Sequence record: MK327935.1
Reading direction: 5' to 3' (one strand)
DNA: 64,000 bases
Source: Escherichia phage vB_EcoM_G2494
The first letter of the stretch is position 1. The number at the start of each line of letters is the position of its first letter. This document shows, piece by piece, positions 1 through 41,700 of this stretch. Under the pieces are notes generated by a model, which was not told where the DNA came from, made no database searches, and worked only from the letters and a program-made list of their open reading frames with translations. The translations under genes and the position numbers were made by a program.

Positions 1-704
1 AAATCATCGAAACGTTCAAAGGTTTTACCTTCATTTGCTTCGCCAAATTTAACCATTCTCAGGCCGTAACGACTACTAAACAGACGTTTCAACTGTCCAA
101 CGATTTTAGAATCAGTGGTTATAACTTCCAATTCTTCTACTTCACGAAAGAATTTTCTATCAGAATCAATAAACCAGCTAGTTCCTTTATGGTCTCTATC
201 TTCGGTTGCGCTCATTAGAGTATGGTCTTTACCATCAATTTCAATTACATCAATTTGCCCACATGGACTAACATTTTTAACAGTAAAAGGTCTATAATTT
301 ATTGCTCGTGCAATAACATAATTAAGGTTAGATACGTTTTCAGCATAATGGCAGAAGTCTGTCATAGCATTCGCATCTTTCCAAGTATAAGTTTTACCAA
401 CTTCCCATTTCTGGGGAACTTCTTCAACTTCACGAAAGAATTTTCGATCGAATGGACTAAAGAAATATGTTGCAGTCCAAATGTCTTTTCCTGTAGCAGT
501 TTTTGCCGTATGATAAACACCGTCTAGCTCTATTGCATTAATCCAACCGTTACCCTCGATCTCGATGATGGTAAATGGCTTGTCACCAATAGCTGCACTA
601 ATATCGCTGTTAAGTGGAGAAAGAACACCTTCTCCGTTAGTAATAAACTCAGTTTTAGCGTTTTCATCTTTCCAGGTGTAAGTTTTACCAATTTCCCATT
701 TCAT
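1..704 (-). CDS. hypothetical protein, 3'-truncated at window edge; two internal ~95-aa repeats
   Basis: Hand translation of minus strand from ATG near 704 (SD AAGGGGAA upstream) stays open to position 1; repeats each begin KWE(I/V)GKTYTWKD and end DRKFFREVEE. Not in ORF track because no stop in window. Confidence 0.45.
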   Translation of the reverse strand, partial: MKWEIGKTYTWKDENAKTEFITNGEGVLSPLNSDISAAIGDKPFTIIEIEGNGWINAIELDGVYHTAKTATGKDIWTATYFFSPFDRKFFREVEEVPQKWEVGKTYTWKDANAMTDFCHYAENVSNLNYVIARAINYRPFTVKNVSPCGQIDVIEIDGKDHTLMSATEDRDHKGTSWFIDSDRKFFREVEELEVITTDSKIVGQLKRLFSSRYGLRMVKFGEANEGKTFERFDD

Positions 705-716
705 AATATATTCCCC

Positions 717-1196
717 TTAACCGATTTTATCAAGTTCGTTTAATGCTTTCTCTGCTTCCTGTATAGCTTGCACTCTTTCCGGCATTTTGTCAAGAAAATC
801 TTTCAACTCTTCAAAACTGGAGATATGACGCAAGGCATTAGCACCGATAGCCGCATGTGATTTGCATTCAAAGCGAATTTTATAATTATCCATCGCCAAT
901 TTGAGAAGATCAATTAATTTAGATTCTTCTGGAATAATAATTTCTTCAAATCTGCTACGGTCATGATCCAGAAACCAACAAGATAGACCTACATCGGTTG
1001 AACTCATATAAGTTCCATCATGAAGATAAACAGACCGCACGTATCCTTTTTTCGCATCAACCGACGCAACTTTAAACGGTAATCGCAGATATTTCAAATA
1101 ATCAACATCATACCATTTAAAAAATTGGTTTGCATCTTTTACATCTTTCCACGCATAGGTCTTACCAGCTTCCCATTTCATAATATCATCTCTCAT
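717..1196 (-). CDS. hypothetical protein, paralog of neighbouring WExGKTY-domain genes
   Basis: ORF track 159 aa; N-terminal MKWEAGKTYAWKD motif shared with flanking ORFs. Confidence 0.5.
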   Translation of the reverse strand: MRDDIMKWEAGKTYAWKDVKDANQFFKWYDVDYLKYLRLPFKVASVDAKKGYVRSVYLHDGTYMSSTDVGLSCWFLDHDRSRFEEIIIPEESKLIDLLKLAMDNYKIRFECKSHAAIGANALRHISSFEELKDFLDKMPERVQAIQEAEKALNELDKIG

Positions 1197-1722
1197 TTTT
1201 GATACGTGATTCTAATTGGATCATACGGTCGCGCGTTTGCTTGTATTCGCGGATAGCACCGATTCGGCTAGGCATACCATCCAGTACGCTCTTAATCCCT
1301 TCTAGGGTAGTGATTTTAGCAATACTATTATGTAATCCCATCTTATCGATTAACTGAATGTCGTAGGCTTCCATAAGCAGACCCAGACGTTCTAAAGTTA
1401 GGTCTTCTTCTTTTTCTTCCGATTCTGGAATCTTAGGTTCAATAGTAACTTCGGTAAAGAAACGACGCTCACCAGACCAAAACCACACACCGGAACAGCC
1501 AATAGGGGATTCTTTTAACGTCATAGAGTCGTAACCACTGCCGATAATAGTAATTTCTCTAACATCACCATCATCGTCAAGGTCTTCTACCCTAAACGGG
1601 CGACCAGCCAACAAGTCAACAATACATCTGTTAATAGACGACGAAAATTTAGTCAGTTCGGCTTTCGACGCTTCGCATTCAATCTTGTAAGTTTTACCAA
1701 CTTCCCATTCCATAATAATCAC
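1186..1722 (-). CDS. hypothetical protein, WExGKTY-domain paralog
   Basis: ORF track 178 aa; N-terminal MEWEVGKTYK motif. Confidence 0.5.
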   Translation of the reverse strand: MIIMEWEVGKTYKIECEASKAELTKFSSSINRCIVDLLAGRPFRVEDLDDDGDVREITIIGSGYDSMTLKESPIGCSGVWFWSGERRFFTEVTIEPKIPESEEKEEDLTLERLGLLMEAYDIQLIDKMGLHNSIAKITTLEGIKSVLDGMPSRIGAIREYKQTRDRMIQLESRIKNER

Positions 1723-5497: not shown

Positions 5498-5507
5498 TGT
5501 ATCACCT

Positions 5508-5532
5508 ATGAAAAAGCGGGATTTCTCCCGCT
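5508..5532 (-). terminator. hairpin plus U-run immediately 5' of nrdD ribosome-binding site (terminator or attenuator-like)
   Basis: Minus RNA agcggga-gaaa-ucccgcu then UUUUUC, then AGGTGA SD and nrdD ATG. Confidence 0.45.
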
Positions 5533-5541
5533 CGTTGATAG

Positions 5542-6036
5542 TTATTTTACCAGTTCTGCTAATTCTTTTTCCGCCGCTTCCAGTTCAGCTTTAAGCTGTT
5601 TAATCTCTTGTCGCTTCTTATTAGCGGCTTCCTGCTTACTATTTCGGATAACCTGATCTAGATACAACTCCCAATCCTGAATATTTTTGATAATGTATCC
5701 GTCAACATTAATTGGTCGGAGATTCAGTACAGCTTCCAGTTTAGTCGCAAAAACTTTAATTGCTGGTGTGAAGTATTCATATTCGTTATCTTCAAACCAA
5801 TAACCTAGACTTGCATTATCAATACGAAGACGAAGTTTAAGATCAAGGTCTTTATCGTCGGTGTAAAGATCTTTCACCTGCCCCATCGAGCTAACAACAA
5901 CTTTAAAACGAATTTTATCTACACCGCCAAAAACATCTTCAAGAATATCAGCAATTGAGCTATTAGCGCAAGATTGGTCGCTGAATGCGTCAAGGTTTTC
6001 TTTAGTTACAGTATACCAAACATCTTGTACCCACAT
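5542..6036 (-). CDS. hypothetical protein
   Basis: ORF track 164 aa; start preceded by GAGGATTATATTATG context. Confidence 0.55.
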   Translation of the reverse strand: MWVQDVWYTVTKENLDAFSDQSCANSSIADILEDVFGGVDKIRFKVVVSSMGQVKDLYTDDKDLDLKLRLRIDNASLGYWFEDNEYEYFTPAIKVFATKLEAVLNLRPINVDGYIIKNIQDWELYLDQVIRNSKQEAANKKRQEIKQLKAELEAAEKELAELVK

Positions 6037-6066
6037 AATATAATCCTCTCGTTGTTAAGTGGGAGT

Positions 6067-6094
6067 ATTATAGCATACTCCCTTCGCATGTCAA
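6067..6094 (-). promoter_or_regulatory. sigma70-like early promoter with inverted repeat across the -10
   Basis: Minus strand TTGACAtgcgaagggagtatgcTATAAT; inverted repeat gggagta...tactccc. Confidence 0.55.
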
Positions 6095-7269
6095 GCACTA
6101 ACTTTTTTCTTTACTGCTTTCACCTTCTGGCGAATTGCTCGAATCTCTTCGATCTCTTTTTCAGTCTCTTTAACAATTTCTTTGCGATTCTGAATATCTG
6201 TATCGAGATTATCATCAAGTTTAGGCAGCATGTCAATCAAGAACTTTTTAAAGTCTTTCAGGTTTCGGATAACAGCACCTTCACCCATTACCGCAACACC
6301 CACACCATCCGGCAGATCACCAAACAGCTTAACCAGTTCAGACAGATGATCATGATCTTCTAGTGCTTCTTCCGGTTCAGATGGCAGTTCAACAAAGTTA
6401 TAACGTTCATCATTGCTGATCAAGTGATACCAGCAAAGCCCGAAAGATTTCGGTGTATATTCTACACCATCAATTTCAACCGCGTCAACACTTCCATAAT
6501 CATCTACTTTAGTTACCTTAAATCCTTGTCCCAGCTTTTGAACAATTTCAACAACATGACTTGATACAGTTTCAGCGGTAAACCAATATGGCAAATTATG
6601 CTGATTTGGCTTGTAGCGTTCACCTACTTTAAATCTCTGACCAGCCGCTTGCATAGAATGAAATTGTTGTTTCGTGATTTCCGCGAAGTATTCAAATTCG
6701 CCACCATCAAACACACAAGCCCATTGATCACAAAAACGATCTGCCTTAACAGTTTCACCTTTCGCGGTGATCGTGGTAGCTGATCCGTGCAATTCTTCTT
6801 CAACTAAAAAGCCATATTCGACAAAATCAACAAGTTTCATAGCTTCTTTGTGATCTGGATCATGCTCTCCCCAGAATCGCTTAAATTCTTGCAAACCTTC
6901 TGGGGTAAACGAATAACATTTACCTTTTTCAAAGTAAGTCGGCATTGCATCCTCTTTCTTGTTCATCGCTTCGTATGCCTCTTTTGAGATGCGTTTAAAG
7001 TATTTACGCTCACTGTGCATAATCATAGTAGCCCAATAATCCACAATATCATTAGCGGAATAAACTACATCTCCAGCTTCAATAGTAATAACATGACCGT
7101 GGTCATCTTTTTCTAATACTTTAAAGCCCTTTTCTACGATTTCAGCAACCCGAATATGACCACGGCGCGAAGCATCGGTCAGAATAATTGAATAGCGAGA
7201 AAAGTCTAGAAACTCATCTTTACCGCCTTCACGGAATGCATAGTAATGACCTTCAAAGAATTTAGCCAT
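6091..7269 (-). CDS. hypothetical protein (shares ERKYFKRI motif region with next two genes)
   Basis: ORF track 392 aa; GAGGATTATATTATG start context. Confidence 0.55.
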   Translation of the reverse strand: MAKFFEGHYYAFREGGKDEFLDFSRYSIILTDASRRGHIRVAEIVEKGFKVLEKDDHGHVITIEAGDVVYSANDIVDYWATMIMHSERKYFKRISKEAYEAMNKKEDAMPTYFEKGKCYSFTPEGLQEFKRFWGEHDPDHKEAMKLVDFVEYGFLVEEELHGSATTITAKGETVKADRFCDQWACVFDGGEFEYFAEITKQQFHSMQAAGQRFKVGERYKPNQHNLPYWFTAETVSSHVVEIVQKLGQGFKVTKVDDYGSVDAVEIDGVEYTPKSFGLCWYHLISNDERYNFVELPSEPEEALEDHDHLSELVKLFGDLPDGVGVAVMGEGAVIRNLKDFKKFLIDMLPKLDDNLDTDIQNRKEIVKETEKEIEEIRAIRQKVKAVKKKVSA

Positions 7270-7300
7270 AATATAATCCTCTCGTTGTTTAGACGGGAGT

Positions 7301-7329
7301 ATCTTACTACTCCCGTTTCATCATGTCAA
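7301..7329 (-). promoter_or_regulatory. sigma70-like early promoter (TTGACA-17-TAAGAT) with embedded hairpin
   Basis: Minus strand TTGACAtgatgaaacgggagtagTAAGAT; inverted repeat acgggagta...tactcccgt. Confidence 0.55.
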
Positions 7330-7892
7330 GCGTTAAATGACTTTTGGATCTCTTTCAGTTCAGCTACTTTATCGGCGCTGAATTTAGCGTAGGTATCATG
7401 TCGAATAATTTCACTTTCAAGAAAGGTTTCCAGCCGAGTTCTATTTTCAATAAGGAACTCTTTCAGGTCTTCCGCGTTCTTGATAAAGATTTTATTGTCG
7501 GTAATGTCATCTTCAATCGCAAAGGAGATAGAGCGAACTTTACCAAACAAGTTAATCAGATCTTCCAGAGATTCTTCTTTCTTAACTGGTTTCATTTCTT
7601 CAAACTGCTTTTTAGTGATACGTTTAAAGTATTTGCGCTCGTTTGCAGCAATCAGAACAGATGCACCTTCATACTCATGAGTTTCTACCAGATACACACG
7701 CCCCATCGCATCAACAGTTAGAACTTTAAAGCCGTTACAAAGCACGTCATACAAGAACTTATTATGTTGCGGACATCGTTTGATAAATTCCTCTGCGGAC
7801 TCAGCATTACGGAAAGTGTAATAACGACCTCGTTCAAAAACAGCATCAGTTGAAGACTTAGCCGGATACAATTTATACGTTTTCTGTACCAT
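7326..7892 (-). CDS. hypothetical protein, paralog of 6091-7269
   Basis: ORF track 7326-7910; start refined to ATG at 7892 preceded by GAGGATTATATT; ERKYFKRITK motif. Confidence 0.5.
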   Translation of the reverse strand: MVQKTYKLYPAKSSTDAVFERGRYYTFRNAESAEEFIKRCPQHNKFLYDVLCNGFKVLTVDAMGRVYLVETHEYEGASVLIAANERKYFKRITKKQFEEMKPVKKEESLEDLINLFGKVRSISFAIEDDITDNKIFIKNAEDLKEFLIENRTRLETFLESEIIRHDTYAKFSADKVAELKEIQKSFNA

Positions 7893-7906
7893 AATATAAT
7901 CCTCTA

Positions 7907-8179
7907 TCATTTCACTAATTGAACAGCACGAAACAGAATGCGGTCACACGGAAGAAGCATAAATTCCCAACGCGGATCAAAGTCTTTAGCGGTATATGTT
8001 TTCCCATCAACCGAGATTTCACTTACATAACCAATAGGTGACACTTTAAGAACAGTAAACCCATTCTTGATGACTTCGTAGGTATCTTTCAATCCTTCGT
8101 AGTCATCCTCTAGGAAGTCTTTACGTGCTTGCTCAGATTTAAAAACATAGGCCACACCAGCTTTAAACATCTTACGCAT
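7907..8179 (-). CDS. hypothetical protein, paralog of the two upstream genes
   Basis: ORF track 7907-8239; start refined to ATG at 8179 with AAGGAG SD; promoter 8211-8239 lies upstream of this start. Confidence 0.45.
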   Translation of the reverse strand: MRKMFKAGVAYVFKSEQARKDFLEDDYEGLKDTYEVIKNGFTVLKVSPIGYVSEISVDGKTYTAKDFDPRWEFMLLPCDRILFRAVQLVK

Positions 8180-8210
8180 TGTTGATTCTCCTTCTTGATT
8201 AGATGGGAGT

Positions 8211-8239
8211 ATTTTACTACTCCCATTTCTTATTGTCAA
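8211..8239 (-). promoter_or_regulatory. sigma70-like early promoter (TTGACA-17-TAAAAT) with embedded hairpin
   Basis: Minus strand TTGACAataagaaatgggagtagTAAAAT. Confidence 0.55.
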
Positions 8240-8242
8240 CTA

Positions 8243-8716
8243 CTATCTTAATCTTTGTATAAATTGTTTCTTATACTTCTTCGTGATTTCTTCTCGTGTA
8301 TCAGCGTCGCAGTAATCGAAACCTTCTGCGTCCATAATAGCAACCATCTCCGCGCGTGTCAAGCGTGAAAATCGTTTTACTTTATCAACAGCATATTGAG
8401 GATGTAAATGATTGTCGGTGTAGTCTCCTTTGATGTAATTAACATAGTTTGTAGCCCAAACAACGAAATCAGCACCTAAAGCACCAACACCAAACCGTTT
8501 AAAGTCTCCGGTCAACGATCCTTCTAGGCGGTTGCAACACGAATGAAGCAATCCCCTTACGCGGCCTTGCCCTTTCCCATCTAGATCGTGGTCGTGGTCA
8601 AGATGGTTTTTGCTCATATCCTCAAAAAGTGGCAATTGACAAAGGGGGCAAATGCCCCCCTGTTTTTCGAATAGTTCTTGTTTGTACTCTTTAGCACTCT
8701 TAGCAGTCAGTAACAT
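8243..8716 (-). CDS. 49: endonuclease VII (Holliday junction resolvase)
   Basis: CPLCQ...NHLDHDHDLDG...RGLLHSCCN resembles T4 gp49 zinc/HNH-like core; start refined to MLLT (157 aa) with GGAGGG SD. Confidence 0.85.
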   Translation of the reverse strand: MLLTAKSAKEYKQELFEKQGGICPLCQLPLFEDMSKNHLDHDHDLDGKGQGRVRGLLHSCCNRLEGSLTGDFKRFGVGALGADFVVWATNYVNYIKGDYTDNHLHPQYAVDKVKRFSRLTRAEMVAIMDAEGFDYCDADTREEITKKYKKQFIQRLR

Positions 8717-8740
8717 AAATTCACCCTCCAAAGAAGGTAT

Positions 8741-9022
8741 TTAACCATTAATCTTGTTTTTGACTACAAAGGATCGGAACTCATCAAAACCACCGATATA
8801 ATCACCATCATAGAAAATCTGCGGCATGGTGGCAATAACTTCTACCCCTGCGCGATCCTGAATGTCGGCAATGATAGAATCAATCTTTACCGGACGACCG
8901 TTTTCGTCTACACCATCATTAACCGGAATGTAGATGTAAGGGATCTTACGCGATTCACAAAGGCGCTTTGCATTCTGGCAATACTTACAGTTGTAACCTT
9001 CAAAACCAAAAATTTCTACCAT
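8741..9022 (-). CDS. nrdC: glutaredoxin/thioredoxin-like protein
   Basis: CKYCQNAKRL active-site CxxC and TMPQIFYDGDYIGGFDE resemble T4 NrdC; start refined to ATG at 9022. Confidence 0.75.
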   Translation of the reverse strand: MVEIFGFEGYNCKYCQNAKRLCESRKIPYIYIPVNDGVDENGRPVKIDSIIADIQDRAGVEVIATMPQIFYDGDYIGGFDEFRSFVVKNKING

Positions 9023-9030
9023 GTTATACC

Positions 9031-9843
9031 TCAATCTACGTTAGTTACATAAACTTCTTGCGTATCAGAAGACTTACCACCTGAACGATCTAGGCAATAG
9101 GTCTTATTCAACAGGACGCAGTTTAAATCATTCCGCTTGATAAAGTCAAGGAGATGATCATTTACCTTTCCCTTATGATGTGTGACATTACTGATACCAA
9201 ACTGAAAACCACGCGCCATAATCGATTCTACCCACTGATAGAATTTAATCTCTTCCTCGTCACTCCAGAACTTATTATATTCCGCAGAAGTGATAAGGTA
9301 CGGCGGGTCCAAATAAACGAAATCACCTGGCAAGATCTCGATCTCGTCATAACGACCAGACGTAAAACTGATTCGACCGTCTTTGTTTTCTTCCTTAAAA
9401 TTCAGGACACGCTCTACCGCGTTTTCGTTAAAAGTCCGTCGGCCAAAATTAGCATTAAATTCTCCCTTCCTGTTATGGCGGTTAATGTTGCTAAAACTGT
9501 GCTGAATCAGAACAAACAGAGATAGCGGATCTGGATTCTCATTATACTTCTTACGGAATGTCATGTAAGCGTCTTTATCATCACGAGACAAACCATTTTC
9601 GGCAATAATACGCTTGATCGTAGAAACCGGATCAGGACACTCGTCAATCGCTTTGTACGCGTCAATTAAGCGGTGATCATAGTCATTAGCCAGCACATCC
9701 CCTTCGACGTACAGAGACACGCTCAAGCCGCCACAGAAGGCATCAACAAAGCGGTTATAGTGCTTAGGGAAATACTTACTAACACCCGGCAATAACTTTT
9801 CCTTATTGCCAGTATAGGGAATTAAACCTAATGCTTTCTTCAT
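9031..9843 (-). CDS. dam: DNA N6-adenine methyltransferase (Dam-like)
   Basis: 270 aa; motif I DAFCGGLSV and motif IV DPPY; N-terminus resembles T4 Dam. Confidence 0.85.
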   Translation of the reverse strand: MKKALGLIPYTGNKEKLLPGVSKYFPKHYNRFVDAFCGGLSVSLYVEGDVLANDYDHRLIDAYKAIDECPDPVSTIKRIIAENGLSRDDKDAYMTFRKKYNENPDPLSLFVLIQHSFSNINRHNRKGEFNANFGRRTFNENAVERVLNFKEENKDGRISFTSGRYDEIEILPGDFVYLDPPYLITSAEYNKFWSDEEEIKFYQWVESIMARGFQFGISNVTHHKGKVNDHLLDFIKRNDLNCVLLNKTYCLDRSGGKSSDTQEVYVTNVD

Positions 9844-11092: not shown

Positions 11093-11401
11093 TTATTTCA
11101 CGTTAACGCCGTTATCAATCCAGCCGACGCTATTTGGTTTAACAGTTTTACCATAGGATGCATACTTAATCAAGCATGGTTTAACATCATTATCAAATCT
11201 TCCTAAACGTACTCCCAAATCAGGAATATCCATGTATGCGGCTTTATATCCCCATGTACCGTATTCAGAATCAATCTCAACCGGACGGCCTTTAAAAGCA
11301 TACACTACACCGTGACGGTCAACGATAACATAGCGATAGCCAGCCGGAAGATACACAGTTTCGCCGTAAACTTTAACTGGAGTAGCAGAAGAGATAAACA
11401 T
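11093..11401 (-). CDS. hypothetical protein
   Basis: ORF track 11093-11437; start refined to ATG at 11401 with GAGGATTATATT context, downstream of promoter 11436-11464. Confidence 0.5.
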   Translation of the reverse strand: MFISSATPVKVYGETVYLPAGYRYVIVDRHGVVYAFKGRPVEIDSEYGTWGYKAAYMDIPDLGVRLGRFDNDVKPCLIKYASYGKTVKPNSVGWIDNGVNVK

Positions 11402-11435
11402 AATATAATCCTCACATCGTTCATTTGATGCGGTC

Positions 11436-13905: not shown

Positions 13906-14125
13906 TTCTTTTATATGGTACTATAACAGGATTAATACAGCAAGCACCAATTACGTTATGAGCACCACAATTTAAGCATTTATAATCATGGAACTTATTA
14001 AGGAATCGCCCGAACTCATAACCGACTAACGCCGCGTGTACTTGAGTCTCGATCTCATCCATGTCAGCCAATGTTTTAACCTTCATAATATAATCCTCAA
14101 ATACTGGTTTTGCGAAGATGGTCAT
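13889..14125 (-). CDS. hypothetical Cys-containing small protein
   Basis: ORF track 78 aa; CLNCG...CC motif. Confidence 0.4.
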   Translation of the reverse strand: MTIFAKPVFEDYIMKVKTLADMDEIETQVHAALVGYEFGRFLNKFHDYKCLNCGAHNVIGACCINPVIVPYKRNETEE

Positions 14126-28275: not shown

Positions 28276-28474
28276 ATTATCACCTTATTTGCTAATCGCT
28301 AAACCCAATCCGAAGAGAGCACCCGATGCTACAGTATACCCGAAAGTTTCAAAGGCAGTAAAGATATCTAAGCCACCAGCTAACAGAGTTGCAGTAAACA
28401 GAGTACCAGCTACGAACATAAAAGTTTTACCGATGAATTTCATTTTGATTCTCCTTTCGTTTGTTTGTGGGGGT

Positions 28475-28503
28475 ATCTTACTACCCCCGTTTCATGTTGT
28501 CAA
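28475..28503 (-). promoter_or_regulatory. sigma70-like early promoter (TTGACA-17-TAAGAT) with embedded hairpin
   Basis: Minus strand TTGACAacatgaaacgggggtagTAAGAT; inverted repeat gggggta...taccccc. Confidence 0.55.
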
Positions 28504-28509
28504 CTATTT

Positions 28510-28884
28510 TTAAGAATATTTTACTTCGTCTACAATGTCTTTCATGACATTGATTTCCATTCCGGTCAGAACACGTTGGAACATGTGCTGCACATACGCT
28601 TTCAGGTATTCATTTGATGGCTTGCTATCGAAAGTCTTTTTAGTGTAGTAGTCATCACCGAAAGCTACTGTAATTACATTTTCGTCGTCGTTCCAAGCGA
28701 TATAAGCAAATTTGCCGTTATCCCAGAAGCGAGCACTAATTGCTACTTTTGTTGAATCGAATCCTACTTCGCTGTGAGATTCAAGAACTACTTGCGTACC
28801 AGTTTCTTTATGAATGTAGTAGCGGGATACTAAGTCAAAGTTACGGGTGTAGTGACATTCGAATTTATCTTTAAACATCATCAT
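28510..28884 (-). CDS. hypothetical protein
   Basis: ORF track 28510-28953; start refined to ATG at 28884 with AGGAGA SD, downstream of promoter 28922-28950. Confidence 0.5.
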   Translation of the reverse strand: MMMFKDKFECHYTRNFDLVSRYYIHKETGTQVVLESHSEVGFDSTKVAISARFWDNGKFAYIAWNDDENVITVAFGDDYYTKKTFDSKPSNEYLKAYVQHMFQRVLTGMEINVMKDIVDEVKYS

Positions 28885-28921
28885 TTTGATTCTCCTAAGT
28901 GTGTTTCGTTTCGATATGTGC

Positions 28922-28950
28922 ATTATGCTATAGTCGTTTATGGTTGTCAA
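28922..28950 (-). promoter_or_regulatory. sigma70-like early promoter (TTGACA-17-CATAAT)
   Basis: Minus strand TTGACAaccataaacgactatagCATAAT. Confidence 0.55.
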
Positions 28951-28951
28951 C

Positions 28952-28986
28952 ACCTAAAAACAAAAAACCCCGAAAAATTTTTCGGG
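28952..28986 (-). terminator. rho-independent terminator
   Basis: Palindromic hairpin ccccgaaaaatttttcgggg; minus RNA followed by UUUUUUGUUUUU. Confidence 0.55.
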
Positions 28987-38799: not shown

Positions 38800-41700
38800 T
38801 TAAAGCGCCTAGTGTAACTAGCTTGACAATAGAAAAATTGTCTGCTAATCAGGCGTATATCACATGGGATGACGTAGGCGAAAACTTCTTTTATTTTGTG
38901 GAGTTAGCCGAAACCAGAACACGAGACGGGGAGATCATCCCCGTCGATGAGTTAAGCTGGGTAAACCTGGGATATACTGCCGACCAAAACTGGTTTGAGG
39001 ATAAAAACCTTTTTCCAGAATATTATTACAAATTTCGTGTAGCAGTAGCCGCAGAAGGATTTGAACAAAGTAAATGGATTGAAACCGAAGAGTTTCAGAC
39101 ATTTAAAACAAACGCATATAATTTTTCTATGATGCGAGAGTTCAACCTTGCAAACGAGTTTATAAAGGAAAAATTTACATACGATAATCGAGAGTATGTC
39201 AAGTTTAATACCGACCTTATTCAAGCATCATTGATGAAGGAAGATTTTGTCTTTAGTCCTGAATATGCAAACATGACAAATATCTCAAACTACATTGTAG
39301 TTGATGAGAACTTTCATGAAATACAGGATCACATAGAAAAAGTTTGTATTGATATAAACCGCACTATGTTAGCGGAAATGAACGGTGTTTTGTACCTTTT
39401 CGAACGGTTCCAGCCGATTGTGAAAGTGTCAAATGATAAAGGTCAATCATGGAAAGCATACAAGGCTTTTAATGACCGTGTAGGAAATCCGGTTTCCCGC
39501 ACATGCGTTTATCAGTCTAAAACCACTACTTACGTTTTAGGATATGACCGAATCTTTTACGGACGACAAGCTAGCGATACTCGATGGAGCGCGGACGATG
39601 TTCGATTTAGTGATGATACGATCACTTTTGCAAAGGTTGGTGACGAGAACGATTTAGGCATTGACGTTGAGGTCTTTGGTGTATTTTCCAGATTAACAGG
39701 GGACACCACAAAATACGCCGAAGCTATGGCGTGCAGTGATGACTATTTGTGGGTTGGTGCTAAAGATGTTATTCGCCGGATTCGTCTTAAGAATACTCCA
39801 GTTGATACCGTACAGGGTTCGCCTACGTTTGGAGAAAAAATATTCGATCCTGATGTTATCCGAGTAACAGGAAATGATAAAGCTGTCATTCAGAAAATGG
39901 ATGTGATCGACGGTAAATTGCTTGTATTTGTTACTGGTGAAGTTAAACAGCGTTATCAAGATCCAACCAAACCAGAAAACGTTGTTCCGTCAGATGATGC
40001 GGGTGTATACTTAATAGGGAGTGATGGTCTGTCTTTTCAGAGAGTATTTGGCAACACTCCGCAGGAAAGGGAATATATTCAGCATGGGTTCAGTAATATG
40101 TCAACCAATGGTGATGAGGTGTTTATAAGCCATTATAATCATCACTTCGAAAGCATTTTACCTGATCCAGAAACTGCCGCGAAATATGAATTGGGCGAAG
40201 CTGTAAAATATTCTCAGGAGCCAACTTATCTAACTGATAAGAAAATACATCAAACTACTTTCAGAGCAAGTTATGATGATTTGCGTATTTGGGAGTTAGG
40301 ACCGCAAGCGTATTATAATGAGGCCGACTATACATGGATGCGTCGAAACGGTGTTCGTGTATGGATCACAAATGATAATCGCCCGTTGGTTGTTTATCCA
40401 GAAGTTGTCTATACGCAGGAAGTTGATACTTCCGGCATTCTTGATAAAAACAGAATTAACCGTGAAGTTTATGATAAAGGGACCGTGACCTGTTATCTTA
40501 ACAATGTTAAATTTGAAGGATTCAAACAATATGCATCCGGTGTAATGTTCCATAAAAACACGGGAGAGATCATTGGATTCTATCAATTTAATTATCGTGT
40601 TCGTGACCAAGTTGGTGTATATTGGAAACCTACAAATGTAGCATTTGTTGCTGAATTGCAAAATCAGGTTCGAGAGGTTCCCTGGGTTCCGGTTCACTAC
40701 GATCGAGAGCAAGATCCAGATTTGCGACCTTTACTGAATAAGATGACACCTGATAGCTTTTTACTTGAGAACGAAAATTTCAGAAAATTCTCTGAATATT
40801 ATCTGCAATTCTTAAGTGATGGTTCAGGAACATATTATAATAAACTAAAAAATCTGATTAAAAACAAATATCCACGCGAGCAAGATGCATATGAGTATCT
40901 TTGGTCAGAGATGAACAAACGAAACATCTATGCAGATAAAAACAAGCGAGATGCGGTAGTAAGATTCTTTGAATCCCGCAAATCAGATTTTTATTCCACT
41001 AAGGGCGTGGAGGCTTCTTATAAGTTCTTGTTTAAGTTACTTTATAATGAAGATGTGGAAATTGAGGTTGAATCACAAGCCGGACTAGAGTATGATATTG
41101 TTGTTAGTTCAACGAACATTGACGAGGATATCGTAGGTCGCACGATTTATACCCCGACCGGACGGGCTAACGTGACTTATCTTGAAAGGGAATATGAAGG
41201 TGGACGTCTACGCTGGCGAGTAACCATTCATAACCTGATCGGGCGGTTCGAAGAAGGTCAAGTGATCAAATCAGAGAAAACAGCGTTTGAAGGGATGATC
41301 CTTGTTGGTGTGCGTGGTAAAGAGTTGTTGAGTAGTTCAATCGACTATATCAACCGCTCACGAAGCCAATACACCATGAAGATTAAAAGTGCATTGCCAG
41401 TTTCGCGCTATGCAAATGATGTAATGCGATTCGTTCATCCTGTCGGCTTTGGGTTTATCGGTGTTACCCTGCTTACGATGTTCATTAACAGCGGGTTGAG
41501 CATGAAGCACACCGAGACGATAATTCAATCTCTGAAAAATTATAAGTTTGACAGCGGATTGCCTAGCGTGTATCCTGATCGGGTGGCAGACCTTGACGTT
41601 GACGGAAACATTAAGAAAGACCCACTAACAGGGAAACCATTATACTTAACGTCACCGACAATGGGCGAAGAGTTCCCCGTTCCTCCTGAATATGATCAGG

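What the first reader, a model, noticed from the sequence alone, without database searches (positions are those of the whole stretch)
6091..8179. Three consecutive paralogous early genes (ERKYFKRI motif family)
ORFs 6091-7269, 7326-7892 and 7907-8179 share motif blocks (HSERKYFKRISKEAYEAM versus ANERKYFKRITKKQFEEM; GFKVL/GFTVL segments). Each has its own promoter of the hairpin-embedded type, indicating serial duplication of a gene-plus-promoter unit.
Basis: seen in the sequence. Interest (0 to 1): 0.4.

Follow-up and report, generated by a model that had tools for sequence, protein, structure and literature searches.

The report
GoF/Frd.2-family early gene cluster
Three neighbouring genes of an RB49-like (T4-type) coliphage are true but old paralogs of the already described T4 GoF/Frd.2 small early-protein family, driven by the already described PeSL promoter/terminator cassettes, so the finding is real but largely known biology.

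Summary
The window is a Krischvirus (RB49-like) genome. The three ORFs sit exactly where stated, on the minus strand, and are homologous (pairwise BLASTP E 4e-9 to 7e-7), so the paralogy is confirmed.

Three corrections:
- **Modules.** The 392-aa protein holds three tandem copies of a ~95-aa N-module plus a helical C-module shared with the 188-aa protein.
- **Family size.** The next gene (5542-6036) is a fourth, divergent member. A second run of the family lies downstream of nrdG (window 1-1713). RB49 has 9 such genes with 12 modules.
- **Promoters.** Only two of the three genes have a hairpin promoter. The 188-aa gene starts 14 nt after the 90-aa gene's stop and is co-transcribed with it.

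The family is that of T4 GoF/Frd.2/MotB.1 (Kim et al. 2025). Both T4 proteins fall in phrog_622, which hits all three genes. An AlphaFold model of the 188-aa protein has FeoA/IdeR SH3-like barrels as its nearest solved folds.

The promoters are PeSL cassettes (Arbiol et al. 2010). The same PeSL subtype precedes unrelated genes, and modules are only 15-36% identical, so "gene-plus-promoter duplication" is not supported. Instead, two PeSLs bracket the 90-aa plus 188-aa pair as one cassette. Phage KFS-EC has lost that cassette through a PeSL-by-PeSL crossover.

Function is inferred only, at low confidence. Interest is modest.

The parts
7907..8179 (-). g3 (90 aa, = RB49p060): a single N-module with no C-module.
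   Evidence: ORF and ortholog. phrog_622 E 1.3e-6 and phrog_16115 E 7e-63. Family HMM E 1.2e-20. dN/dS 0.17 against RB49.
7326..7892 (-). g2 (188 aa, = RB49p059): N-module (about aa 16-102) plus a helical C-module ending in a long helix (aa 151-187).
7893..7906 (-). 14-nt g3/g2 junction: Shine-Dalgarno region only, no promoter or hairpin. g3 and g2 form one transcription unit.
   Evidence: Sequence, alignment. No strong promoter found in the scan.
6091..7269 (-). g1 (392 aa, = RB49p058, annotated 'frd.2' / 'goF mRNA metabolism modulator'): three tandem N-modules plus a C-module.
   Evidence: Three HMM domains, i-E 8e-24, 5e-20 and 3e-21. phrog_622 E 5e-20 in 3 stretches. g2 aligns to three separate g1 segments. 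Present in 58 of 58 Krischvirus records.
6955..7269 (-). g1 module a (aa 1-105).
6649..6945 (-). g1 module b (aa 109-207).
6376..6642 (-). g1 module c (aa 210-298), the segment hit by T4 Frd.2.
   Evidence: BLASTP of Frd.2 against g1 aa 213-315, E 1.4e-5. Also.
6094..6375 (-). g1 C-module (aa 299-392): homologous to the g2 C-module and ending in a long helix.
   Evidence: BLASTP HSP of g1 246-385 against g2 51-188, E 4e-9. Alignment A3. Helix 337-391 in a low-confidence model.
5542..6036 (-). g0 (164 aa, = RB49p057): a divergent fourth member (N-module plus coiled-coil C-module).
   Evidence: Iterated family HMM E 1.6e-8 over the full module. phrog_3710 hits g0 (2.3e-5), g1 (8.7e-6), T4 GoF (8e-12) and Frd.2 (1.5e-4). 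hhalign E 6e-5, probability 65%.
8177..8239 (-). PeSL between gene 49 and g3: -35 TTGACA 8239-8234, -10 TAAAAT 8216-8211, stem-loop 8225-8204, SD (with GGAG) and ATG.
   Evidence: Fold -13.8 kcal/mol, z -3.9. Annotated as a promoter in GEC-3S.
7267..7329 (-). PeSL between g2 and g1: -35 7329-7324 (contains the g2 TGA stop), -10 TAAGAT 7306-7301, stem-loop 7315-7294, SD and ATG.
   Evidence: Fold -15.2 kcal/mol, z -4.3.
6034..6094 (-). PeSL between g1 and g0: -35 6094-6089 (contains the g1 TGA stop), -10 TATAAT 6072-6067, stem-loop 6082-6061, SD and ATG.
   Evidence: 12 of 12 consensus matches. Fold -14.5 kcal/mol, z -3.2. Annotated as a promoter in GEC-3S.
1186..1713 (-). Second-cluster member (175 aa, = RB49p051), immediately downstream of nrdG.
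   Evidence: HMM E 4.2e-22. phrog_5347 E 1.2e-66 and phrog_622 E 2e-10.
717..1181 (-). Second-cluster member (154 aa, = RB49p050).
   Evidence: HMM E 1.2e-17. phrog_5347 E 1.5e-59.
1..716 (-). Second-cluster member with two tandem N-modules (= RB49p049, 274 aa), cut by the start of the window.
   Evidence: Two HMM domains, 7.6e-22 and 1.2e-22. The two modules are 52% identical to each other. phrog_622 E 2.4e-19.

Best explanation
The three ORFs belong to a locally expanded family of small early proteins of a Krischvirus (RB49-like T4-type coliphage). [quoted passage not shown] Its unit is a ~90-aa N-terminal SH3/FeoA-like ('LSm-like') beta-barrel module, usually followed by a helical C-module that here ends in a long, probably dimerising, helix. 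Old duplications produced four consecutive genes between gene 49 and nrdD (g3, g2, g1, g0). An intragenic triplication gave g1 three barrels in one chain. A second run of the family lies downstream of nrdG. Transcription is organised by PeSL cassettes, which are strong sigma-70 early promoters whose -10 region is embedded in a stem-loop that attenuates read-through from upstream. The units are PeSL -> g3+g2, PeSL -> g1 and PeSL -> g0. The PeSLs were not co-duplicated with the genes. They are shared recombination-prone elements: the two PeSLs flanking g3+g2 define a ~910-bp cassette that phage KFS-EC has lost through a crossover inside the shared stem-loop. Shown here: homology, module architecture, promoter anatomy, purifying selection, and the PeSL-mediated indel. 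Inferred at about 0.3 confidence: the proteins are non-essential host-takeover accessories that act post-transcriptionally, stabilising or protecting particular mRNAs either directly or by binding a host RNA-decay or termination factor. That inference rests on the T4 GoF(D25Y) gain-of-function phenotype.
Confidence: 0.8

Rival explanations
1. One reading: a unit made of one gene plus its hairpin promoter was duplicated serially, giving three genes each with its own promoter.
For: Two of the three genes, and the next gene g0, do have a PeSL directly upstream. The PeSLs before g3 and g1 share 28 of 31 nt, and those before g1 and g0 share an identical 23-nt 3' end. The g2 start region carries the same 16-nt SD-ATG motif, which could be a PeSL remnant.
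Against: g2 has no promoter or hairpin, and the intergenic gap is 14 nt. Proteins are 15-36% identical with no DNA similarity, whereas the PeSLs are about 85-90% identical. The same 35-nt PeSL pattern precedes unrelated ORFs at 20.6 and 28.5 kb. The SD-ATG motif occurs 9 times across the window. The second cluster has no PeSLs between its genes.
Confidence: 0.07
2. The paralogs did not duplicate in place. Already-diverged family members were brought together from other T4-like phages by PeSL-mediated modular shuffling.
For: PeSL-bounded cassettes are demonstrably gained or lost here (KFS-EC). PeSL mini-circles are proposed vectors of horizontal transfer (PMC2839356). Divergence between modules is deep and the tree is star-like. 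g0 groups with the second cluster rather than with its neighbours.
Against: g1a, g1b, g1c, g2 and g3 group together against the second cluster and the T4 proteins. g1 and g2 share a specific C-module. Orthologs of g1 and g2 were found only in Krischvirus-like phages. The intragenic triplication in g1 and the duplication in p049 (52% identity) must be local events.
Confidence: 0.15
3. Functional rival: the barrels are protein-binding SH3/FeoA-like adaptors, for example inhibitors or decoys of host proteins or defence systems, with each paralog tuned to a different target. They would not be RNA-binding LSm-like proteins.
For: The nearest solved folds are FeoA and the SH3-like domain of IdeR/DtxR, not Hfq or Sm. 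Most modules are acidic. Family expansion, variable gene content (KFS-EC) and location in a hyperplastic region are typical of accessory host-interaction genes (PMC2839356). Wild-type GoF showed little RNA effect.
Against: There is no direct evidence for any protein partner. The only phenotype in the family, GoF D25Y/G84R, concerns mRNA level and stability. No PADLOC or anti-defence annotation was found or tested.
Confidence: 0.35
4. The similarity is chance or compositional, limited to short motifs, and the ORFs are unrelated ORFans.
For: None beyond the low pairwise identity (25-36%).
Against: Pairwise E-values are significant. Independent PHROG profiles hit all members. A profile search of 1.84 billion proteins returns almost only small proteins of T4-like phages. 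There are conserved invariant columns.
Confidence: 0.01

Closest known systems
T4 GoF (ComC-alpha) / Frd.2 / MotB.1 family of 'LSm-like fold' early proteins (Kim et al. 2025, PMC12152347; phrog_622)
   Same: The ~90-aa N-terminal beta-barrel module is detectable by sequence profile. The nearest solved folds are the same, FeoA and IdeR. Both have a linker plus a C-terminal domain. Both are early, small, mostly acidic, and restricted to T4-like phages. RefSeq already labels g1 and g2 'goF mRNA metabolism modulator'.
   Different: T4 has three dispersed single-module genes. This phage has none at the T4 goF/motB.1 locus between gene 39 and dexA. RB49 has 9 genes with 12 modules, 8 of them in two runs flanking nrdD-nrdG. 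g1 is a three-module chain and p049 a two-module chain. g3 lacks the C-module. The C-modules of g0, g1 and g2 carry a long terminal helix absent from T4 GoF and Frd.2. The paper does not mention RB49, paralog clusters or tandem modules.
PeSL (promoter-early stem-loop) cassettes of RB49/phi1 (Arbiol et al. 2010, PMC2839356; Comeau et al. 2014, PMC4122927)
   Same: A sigma-70 consensus promoter with a stem-loop overlapping the -10 box. The upstream gene's stop codon lies at the 5' edge and the SD/ATG at the 3' edge. They sit in a hyperplastic region next to nrdD and mediate an indel by PeSL-by-PeSL recombination.
   Different: Nothing substantive, since these are ordinary PeSLs. The specific KFS-EC deletion of g3+g2 and the overlap of the stop codon with the -35 hexamer are details I did not find in the sections of the paper I searched.
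FeoA and the SH3-like domain of DtxR/IdeR-family regulators (CATH 2.30.30.90)
   Different: There is no sequence similarity (10-17% identity, and no Pfam FeoA hit). Two helices are inserted after the first strand. There is no iron-related context beyond chance proximity to nrdG/nrdD. Foldseek E-values are not significant.
Hfq / Sm (LSm) RNA chaperones
   Same: A small bent five-stranded antiparallel barrel. The published family name and hypothesis invoke this fold.

Membership tests
GoF/Frd.2/MotB.1 family (phrog_622; Kim et al. 2025) | Sequence-profile similarity of the N-terminal ~90-aa module to T4 GoF and Frd.2. | tested here: met
   phrog_622 contains T4 GoF (4.6e-38) and Frd.2 (4.1e-46), and hits g1 at 5.1e-20, g2 at 5.5e-7 and g3 at 1.3e-6. 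BLASTP gives GoF-g2 3.4e-6 and Frd.2-g1 1.4e-5. The iterated HMM gives GoF 1.9e-19 and Frd.2 1.2e-13.
GoF/Frd.2/MotB.1 family (phrog_622; Kim et al. 2025) | Predicted N-domain is a bent five-stranded antiparallel beta-sheet (SH3-like topology) whose closest solved relatives are FeoA and IdeR. | tested here: met
GoF/Frd.2/MotB.1 family (phrog_622; Kim et al. 2025) | Two-domain layout: N-barrel, flexible linker, C-terminal domain. | tested here: met
   g2, g1 and g0 have the C-module. g3 is N-module only, so it is a truncated-architecture member.
GoF/Frd.2/MotB.1 family (phrog_622; Kim et al. 2025) | Encoded by T4-like (Straboviridae) phages and expressed early. | tested here: inconclusive
   Host genome is a Krischvirus, family Straboviridae. 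Relatives occur in Yersinia, Enterobacter, Aeromonas and Proteus T4-like phages. Early expression is only inferred from the sigma-70 PeSL promoters; no expression data were available.
GoF/Frd.2/MotB.1 family (phrog_622; Kim et al. 2025) | Effect on mRNA level or stability (shown only for the GoF D25Y mutant). | not testable with these tools
   This needs reporter, RT-qPCR or CLIP experiments. Wild-type GoF and MotB.1 had little effect in PMC12152347.
LSm / Hfq fold proper | Sm fold (N-terminal helix plus five strongly bent strands), with Hfq or Sm proteins among the structural neighbours. | tested here: not met
LSm / Hfq fold proper | Ring-shaped homo-oligomer (hexamer or heptamer). | not testable with these tools
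   No multimer prediction was available. PMC12152347 reports no confident AF3 homomultimer for GoF or MotB.1.
PeSL cassette (Arbiol et al. 2010) | Sigma-70 consensus -35/-10 promoter with a stable stem-loop between or overlapping the boxes, in an intergenic position between an upstream stop codon and a downstream SD/ATG. | tested here: met
   This holds for the elements at 8239-8177, 7329-7267 and 6094-6034. They score 10-12 of 12 consensus matches and form hairpins of -13.8 to -15.2 kcal/mol with z -3.2 to -4.3. Layout is shown. It is NOT met upstream of g2 (7893-7906).
PeSL cassette (Arbiol et al. 2010) | Repeated through the genome, preferentially in hyperplastic regions and before ORFans. 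| tested here: met
   The same 35-nt pattern occurs 4 times in the window against 0 expected, including before unrelated small ORFs.
PeSL cassette (Arbiol et al. 2010) | Serves as a crossover point for indels between related phages. | tested here: met
   KFS-EC lacks g3+g2 and carries one chimeric PeSL whose halves match the two flanking PeSLs of the window.
PeSL cassette (Arbiol et al. 2010) | Measured promoter and terminator/attenuator activity. | not testable with these tools
   The paper showed activity only for other PeSLs (193/192, 206/205, 211/210).

The most novel reading that the evidence does not exclude
g1, with three barrels in one chain and a long C-terminal helix that may dimerise, could assemble six barrels into a pseudo-hexameric Hfq-like ring or a multivalent scaffold. 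The nine-gene Krischvirus battery would then be a set of phage-encoded RNA-chaperone mimics or sequestrators, each capturing different host or phage RNAs or RNA-decay factors early in infection. The two positions whose mutation activates T4 GoF would be natively non-acidic or basic in g1a and g2. G84R aligns with the K of the ERKYFKRI motif. The placement of D25Y is ambiguous. That would make g1a and g2 naturally 'on' versions.
Probability: 0.07. Interest if true: 0.6.

Novelty: new member of a known kind. Interest (0 to 1): 0.27.

Why it matters
The finding adds detail to two published ideas rather than opening a new one.

First, it shows that the recently defined GoF/Frd.2/MotB.1 family is not limited to three dispersed single-domain genes as in T4. 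It can expand to nine genes with twelve modules, including two- and three-barrel chains, clustered around the anaerobic ribonucleotide reductase genes of RB49-like phages. That gives natural variants for working out what the barrel binds: basic versus acidic modules, with or without the C-module, and one to three barrels.

Second, it supplies a clean natural example of a PeSL-by-PeSL crossover, in which KFS-EC lost g3+g2. This supports the published model of cassette shuffling.

For annotation, g3, g0, RB49p048-p051 and Dc2 could be labelled as family members instead of 'hypothetical protein'.

Tried and rejected
- **AlphaFold2 of full-length g1 with 8 orthologs.** Mean pLDDT was 48.8 and pTM 0.29, which is unusable, so it was not taken to a fold search.
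- **Pfam and NCBIfam scans.** No family reached its cut-off for g0-g3.
- **Profile search against PDB sequences.** Only spurious weak hits appeared: RepX, calmodulin and CDPK at E >= 0.002.
- **Homolog searches with g2 and g1.** They returned only close (62-98%) Krischvirus-type orthologs, which were of little use for deep alignments.
- **Literature search for frd.2 / motB.1 / goF.** The only relevant paper was Kim et al. 2025.
- **Iron or anaerobiosis link, considered and rejected.** The idea was that a FeoA-like fold next to nrdD/nrdG implies such a link. There is no sequence similarity to FeoA. T4 members sit at unrelated loci. PMC12152347 notes that GoF lacks the metal-binding histidine residues of the related DNA-binding metal regulators such as IdeR and SloR.
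- **Large repetitive proteins in the 1.84-billion-protein search, considered and set aside.** These were P0040, P0041, P0057 and others (800-4000 aa). They match only profile positions ~44-71 several times over, which is probably a generic beta-hairpin repeat.
- This was resolved.
Full report
**1. What the window is**

The region 5500-8800 is 96-98% identical over its full length to Krischvirus genomes (PHB13, MIZ4, JSE, RB49, GEC-3S and others). 58 phage records match, all from this genus. In RB49 the genes in question are RB49p058 ('frd.2', RefSeq 'goF mRNA metabolism modulator'), RB49p059 (same RefSeq name) and RB49p060 (hypothetical). They lie between gene 49 (endonuclease VII) and nrdD.

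**2. Check of the observation**

The three ORFs are exactly where stated, on the minus strand:
- g1, 6091-7269, 392 aa
- g2, 7326-7892, 188 aa
- g3, 7907-8179, 90 aa

The quoted motifs are present. The similarity is far more than short motifs:
- g2 aligns to three separate parts of g1 (E 8e-9, 1e-4 and 4e-9).
- g3 aligns to two parts of g1 (6e-7 and 9e-7).
- g3 aligns to g2 at 7e-7.

All four genes of the cluster evolve under purifying selection, with dN/dS 0.17-0.28 against RB49 or KFS-EC. g1 is present full-length in 58 of 58 Krischvirus records, and tblastn at E 1e-3 finds it nowhere else.

**3. Anatomy of the proteins**

g1 is an internal triplication. It has three ~95-aa N-modules (aa 1-105, 109-207 and 210-298) followed by a C-module (aa 299-392).
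- g2 is one N-module plus the same C-module. The g1 246-385 / g2 51-188 HSP spans both parts (alignment A3).
- g3 is an N-module alone.

An HMM built from the five modules found more copies in the window. They lie downstream of nrdG at 1186-1713, 717-1181 and 1-716. The last has two modules and is cut by the window edge.

An alignment of nine modules has invariant G, Y, F, G and F columns and the signature [FW]-E-x-G-x-x-Y ... [GP]-F-x-V ... G-x-V ... [ED]-[RF]-x-x-F-x-E-[IV].

After one round of enrichment with hits from a 1.84-billion-protein library, the profile also picks up the next gene, g0 (5542-6036), at E 1.6e-8 over the whole module. Two further results support g0:
- phrog_3710 hits g0, g1, T4 GoF and Frd.2.
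- hhalign gives E 6e-5.

Scanning the RB49 sequence outside the region covered by the window adds RB49p048 (next to p049) and Dc2 (upstream of gene 41). Nothing was found between 94 and 164 kb. The genus therefore has 9 genes with 12 modules, and 8 of the genes sit in two runs of four flanking nrdD...nrdG.

Module identities are 15-36%. The exception is the two modules of p049, at 52%. In a weak, star-like tree, g1a, g1b, g1c, g2 and g3 group together.

**4. What family it is**

- BLASTP links T4 GoF to g2 (3.4e-6) and T4 Frd.2 to the third module of g1 (1.4e-5).
- T4 GoF and Frd.2 both belong to phrog_622 (4.6e-38 and 4.1e-46). That profile hits g1 (5e-20, three stretches), g2, g3 and the second cluster.
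- The enriched HMM scores GoF at 1.9e-19, Frd.2 at 1.2e-13 and MotB.1 at 5.6e-5.

Kim et al. 2025 (PMC12152347) defined exactly this GoF/Frd.2/MotB.1 family. They describe an N-terminal five-stranded 'LSm-like' barrel whose nearest PDB relatives are FeoA and IdeR-type SH3-like domains, followed by variable C-domains.

I reproduced the fold result independently for g2:
- The AF2 model has mean pLDDT 73, with 71-86 over the N-domain.
- Foldseek against viral predicted structures returns small proteins of T4-like phages, including an annotated GoF.

The family is small: 68 representatives at E <= 1e-3 among 1.84 billion proteins. Named members come from T4-like phages of Yersinia, Enterobacter, Aeromonas and Proteus. 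Several two-module proteins and one other three-module protein occur. The paper does not mention RB49, paralog clusters or tandem modules.

**5. The promoters**

Three elements in the cluster have a near-consensus sigma-70 promoter whose -10 box sits in the loop and 3' arm of an 8-9-bp G+C-rich hairpin. They lie at:
- 8239-8177, before g3
- 7329-7267, before g1
- 6094-6034, before g0

These are PeSLs as described for RB49 and phi1: promoter plus stem-loop, upstream stop codon at the 5' edge, and SD/ATG at the 3' edge (PMC2839356). Here the TGA stops of g2 and g1 lie inside the -35 hexamer TTGACA.

A transcript started at a PeSL begins just 3' of the hairpin, so the hairpin can form only in read-through RNA from upstream. 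This fits the published attenuator role; that step is my inference.

g2 has no PeSL. Its ATG is 14 nt after the g3 stop, so g3 and g2 form one unit.

The same 35-nt PeSL pattern occurs four times in the window against 0 expected. Two of those copies precede unrelated ORFs. The SD-ATG motif GAGGATTATATTATG occurs 9 times with at most one mismatch, against 0.01 expected. Promoter similarity is therefore a property of PeSLs genome-wide and not a trace of gene-plus-promoter duplication.

**6. A natural test of the cassette idea**

One phage, KFS-EC (two records of the same genome), lacks g3 and g2. There, endonuclease VII is followed by a single PeSL and then g1. That PeSL is chimeric:
- Its 5' half, up to the stem, matches the window's 49/g3 PeSL.
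- Its 3' half, from the loop onward including the SD and the g1 start, matches the g2/g1 PeSL.

The crossover lies in the shared stem-loop. Since the other 56 records, all but the two records of KFS-EC itself, carry the cassette, a deletion in KFS-EC is the parsimonious reading. This is the mechanism proposed by Arbiol et al., now seen at this locus.

**7. How it most likely works**

Shown:
- An expanded GoF/Frd.2-type family under purifying selection.
- Organisation into PeSL-defined early transcription units.
- One PeSL-bounded cassette that is dispensable in nature.

Inferred:
- Old local duplications plus intragenic module amplification created the cluster.
- The proteins are non-essential early accessories.

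For biochemical function, the only lead comes from T4. GoF(D25Y) and G84R suppress rho(nusD) restriction, and D25Y raises the stability of gene-41 mRNA post-transcriptionally. In my alignment, GoF G84 corresponds to the K of ERKYFKRI in g1a and g2. This hints that some paralogs are natively closer to the 'activated' state, but it is speculation.

Against an RNA role, most modules are acidic, wild-type GoF is nearly inert in the reporter assay, and the nearest folds are protein-binding SH3-like domains. I therefore put the post-transcriptional model at about 0.3 and a protein-adaptor role at about 0.35, with the rest unknown.

**8. Verdict**

Both components, the protein family and the promoter cassettes, are already described in the literature. 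RefSeq already names two of the three genes 'goF'.

What is new is modest:
- the size and layout of the Krischvirus expansion
- the multi-barrel chains
- family membership of g3, g0, p048-p051 and Dc2
- the KFS-EC PeSL-mediated cassette loss

Novelty: new member of a known kind. Interest: about 0.27.

Noticed in passing
window 1-1713 (minus strand); RB49 NC_005066 30297-32608: A second run of the same family lies directly downstream of nrdG: RB49p051, p050, p049 (two modules) and p048. The window contains the first three, and the last of these is cut by the window start. With g3 to g0, the family flanks the nrdD...nrdG block on both sides.
   Followed up: yes
RB49 NC_005066 11993-12628 (Dc2, outside the window): Dc2, the gene just upstream of helicase gene 41, hits the family HMM at E 4.5e-8. 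The ECD7 Dc2 model is a Foldseek hit of g2 at 7e-4. This is curious because the T4 GoF(D25Y) phenotype concerns gene-41 mRNA.
   Followed up: partly
window 6034-6048, 7267-7281, 7890-7904, 11399-11413, 14084-14098, 24980-24994 (exact); 10272, 18741, 32312 (1 mismatch); all minus strand: The 15-nt translation-initiation motif GAGGATTATATTATG is repeated 9 times against 0.01 expected. It looks like the shared 3' end of one PeSL subclass, or a strongly selected initiation region. In contrast, the PeSLs before g3 and at 20.6 and 28.5 kb carry a GGAG-type SD.
   Followed up: partly
window 7324-7329 and 6089-6094: The TGA stop codons of g2 and g1 lie inside the -35 hexamer TTGACA of the next PeSL, so the end of the coding sequence and the promoter overlap.
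   Followed up: yes
window 20591-20625 and 28469-28503 (minus strand): Two further PeSLs of the same subclass (GGGGGTAGTAAnATACCCCC stem-loop) lie upstream of unrelated small ORFs: 20230-20565 (111 aa) and 28285-28443 (52 aa, hydrophobic).
   Followed up: yes
window 28510-28953 and 24665-24997 (minus strand): These ORFs give borderline hits to the enriched family HMM (E 0.014 and 0.022, partial module only). They may be very divergent relatives or noise.
   Followed up: no
L002 (GEC-3S NC_025425) 39553-40308, compared with window 9031-9034: GEC-3S carries a putative HNH homing endonuclease between nrdC and dam. The window and RB49 go straight from nrdC to dam.
   Followed up: no
RB49 NC_005066 3205-5971 (outside the window): RB49 has no goF, cef, motB or motB.1 genes at the T4 position between gene 39 and dexA (compared with T4). 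The Krischvirus family members are therefore not syntenic with their T4 relatives.
   Followed up: partly
proteins P0040, P0041, P0057, P0059, P0068 and others: Very large proteins (800-4000 aa) match a ~25-residue part of the module profile (positions ~44-71) 4-9 times each. This is probably a generic beta-hairpin repeat rather than homology.
   Followed up: no
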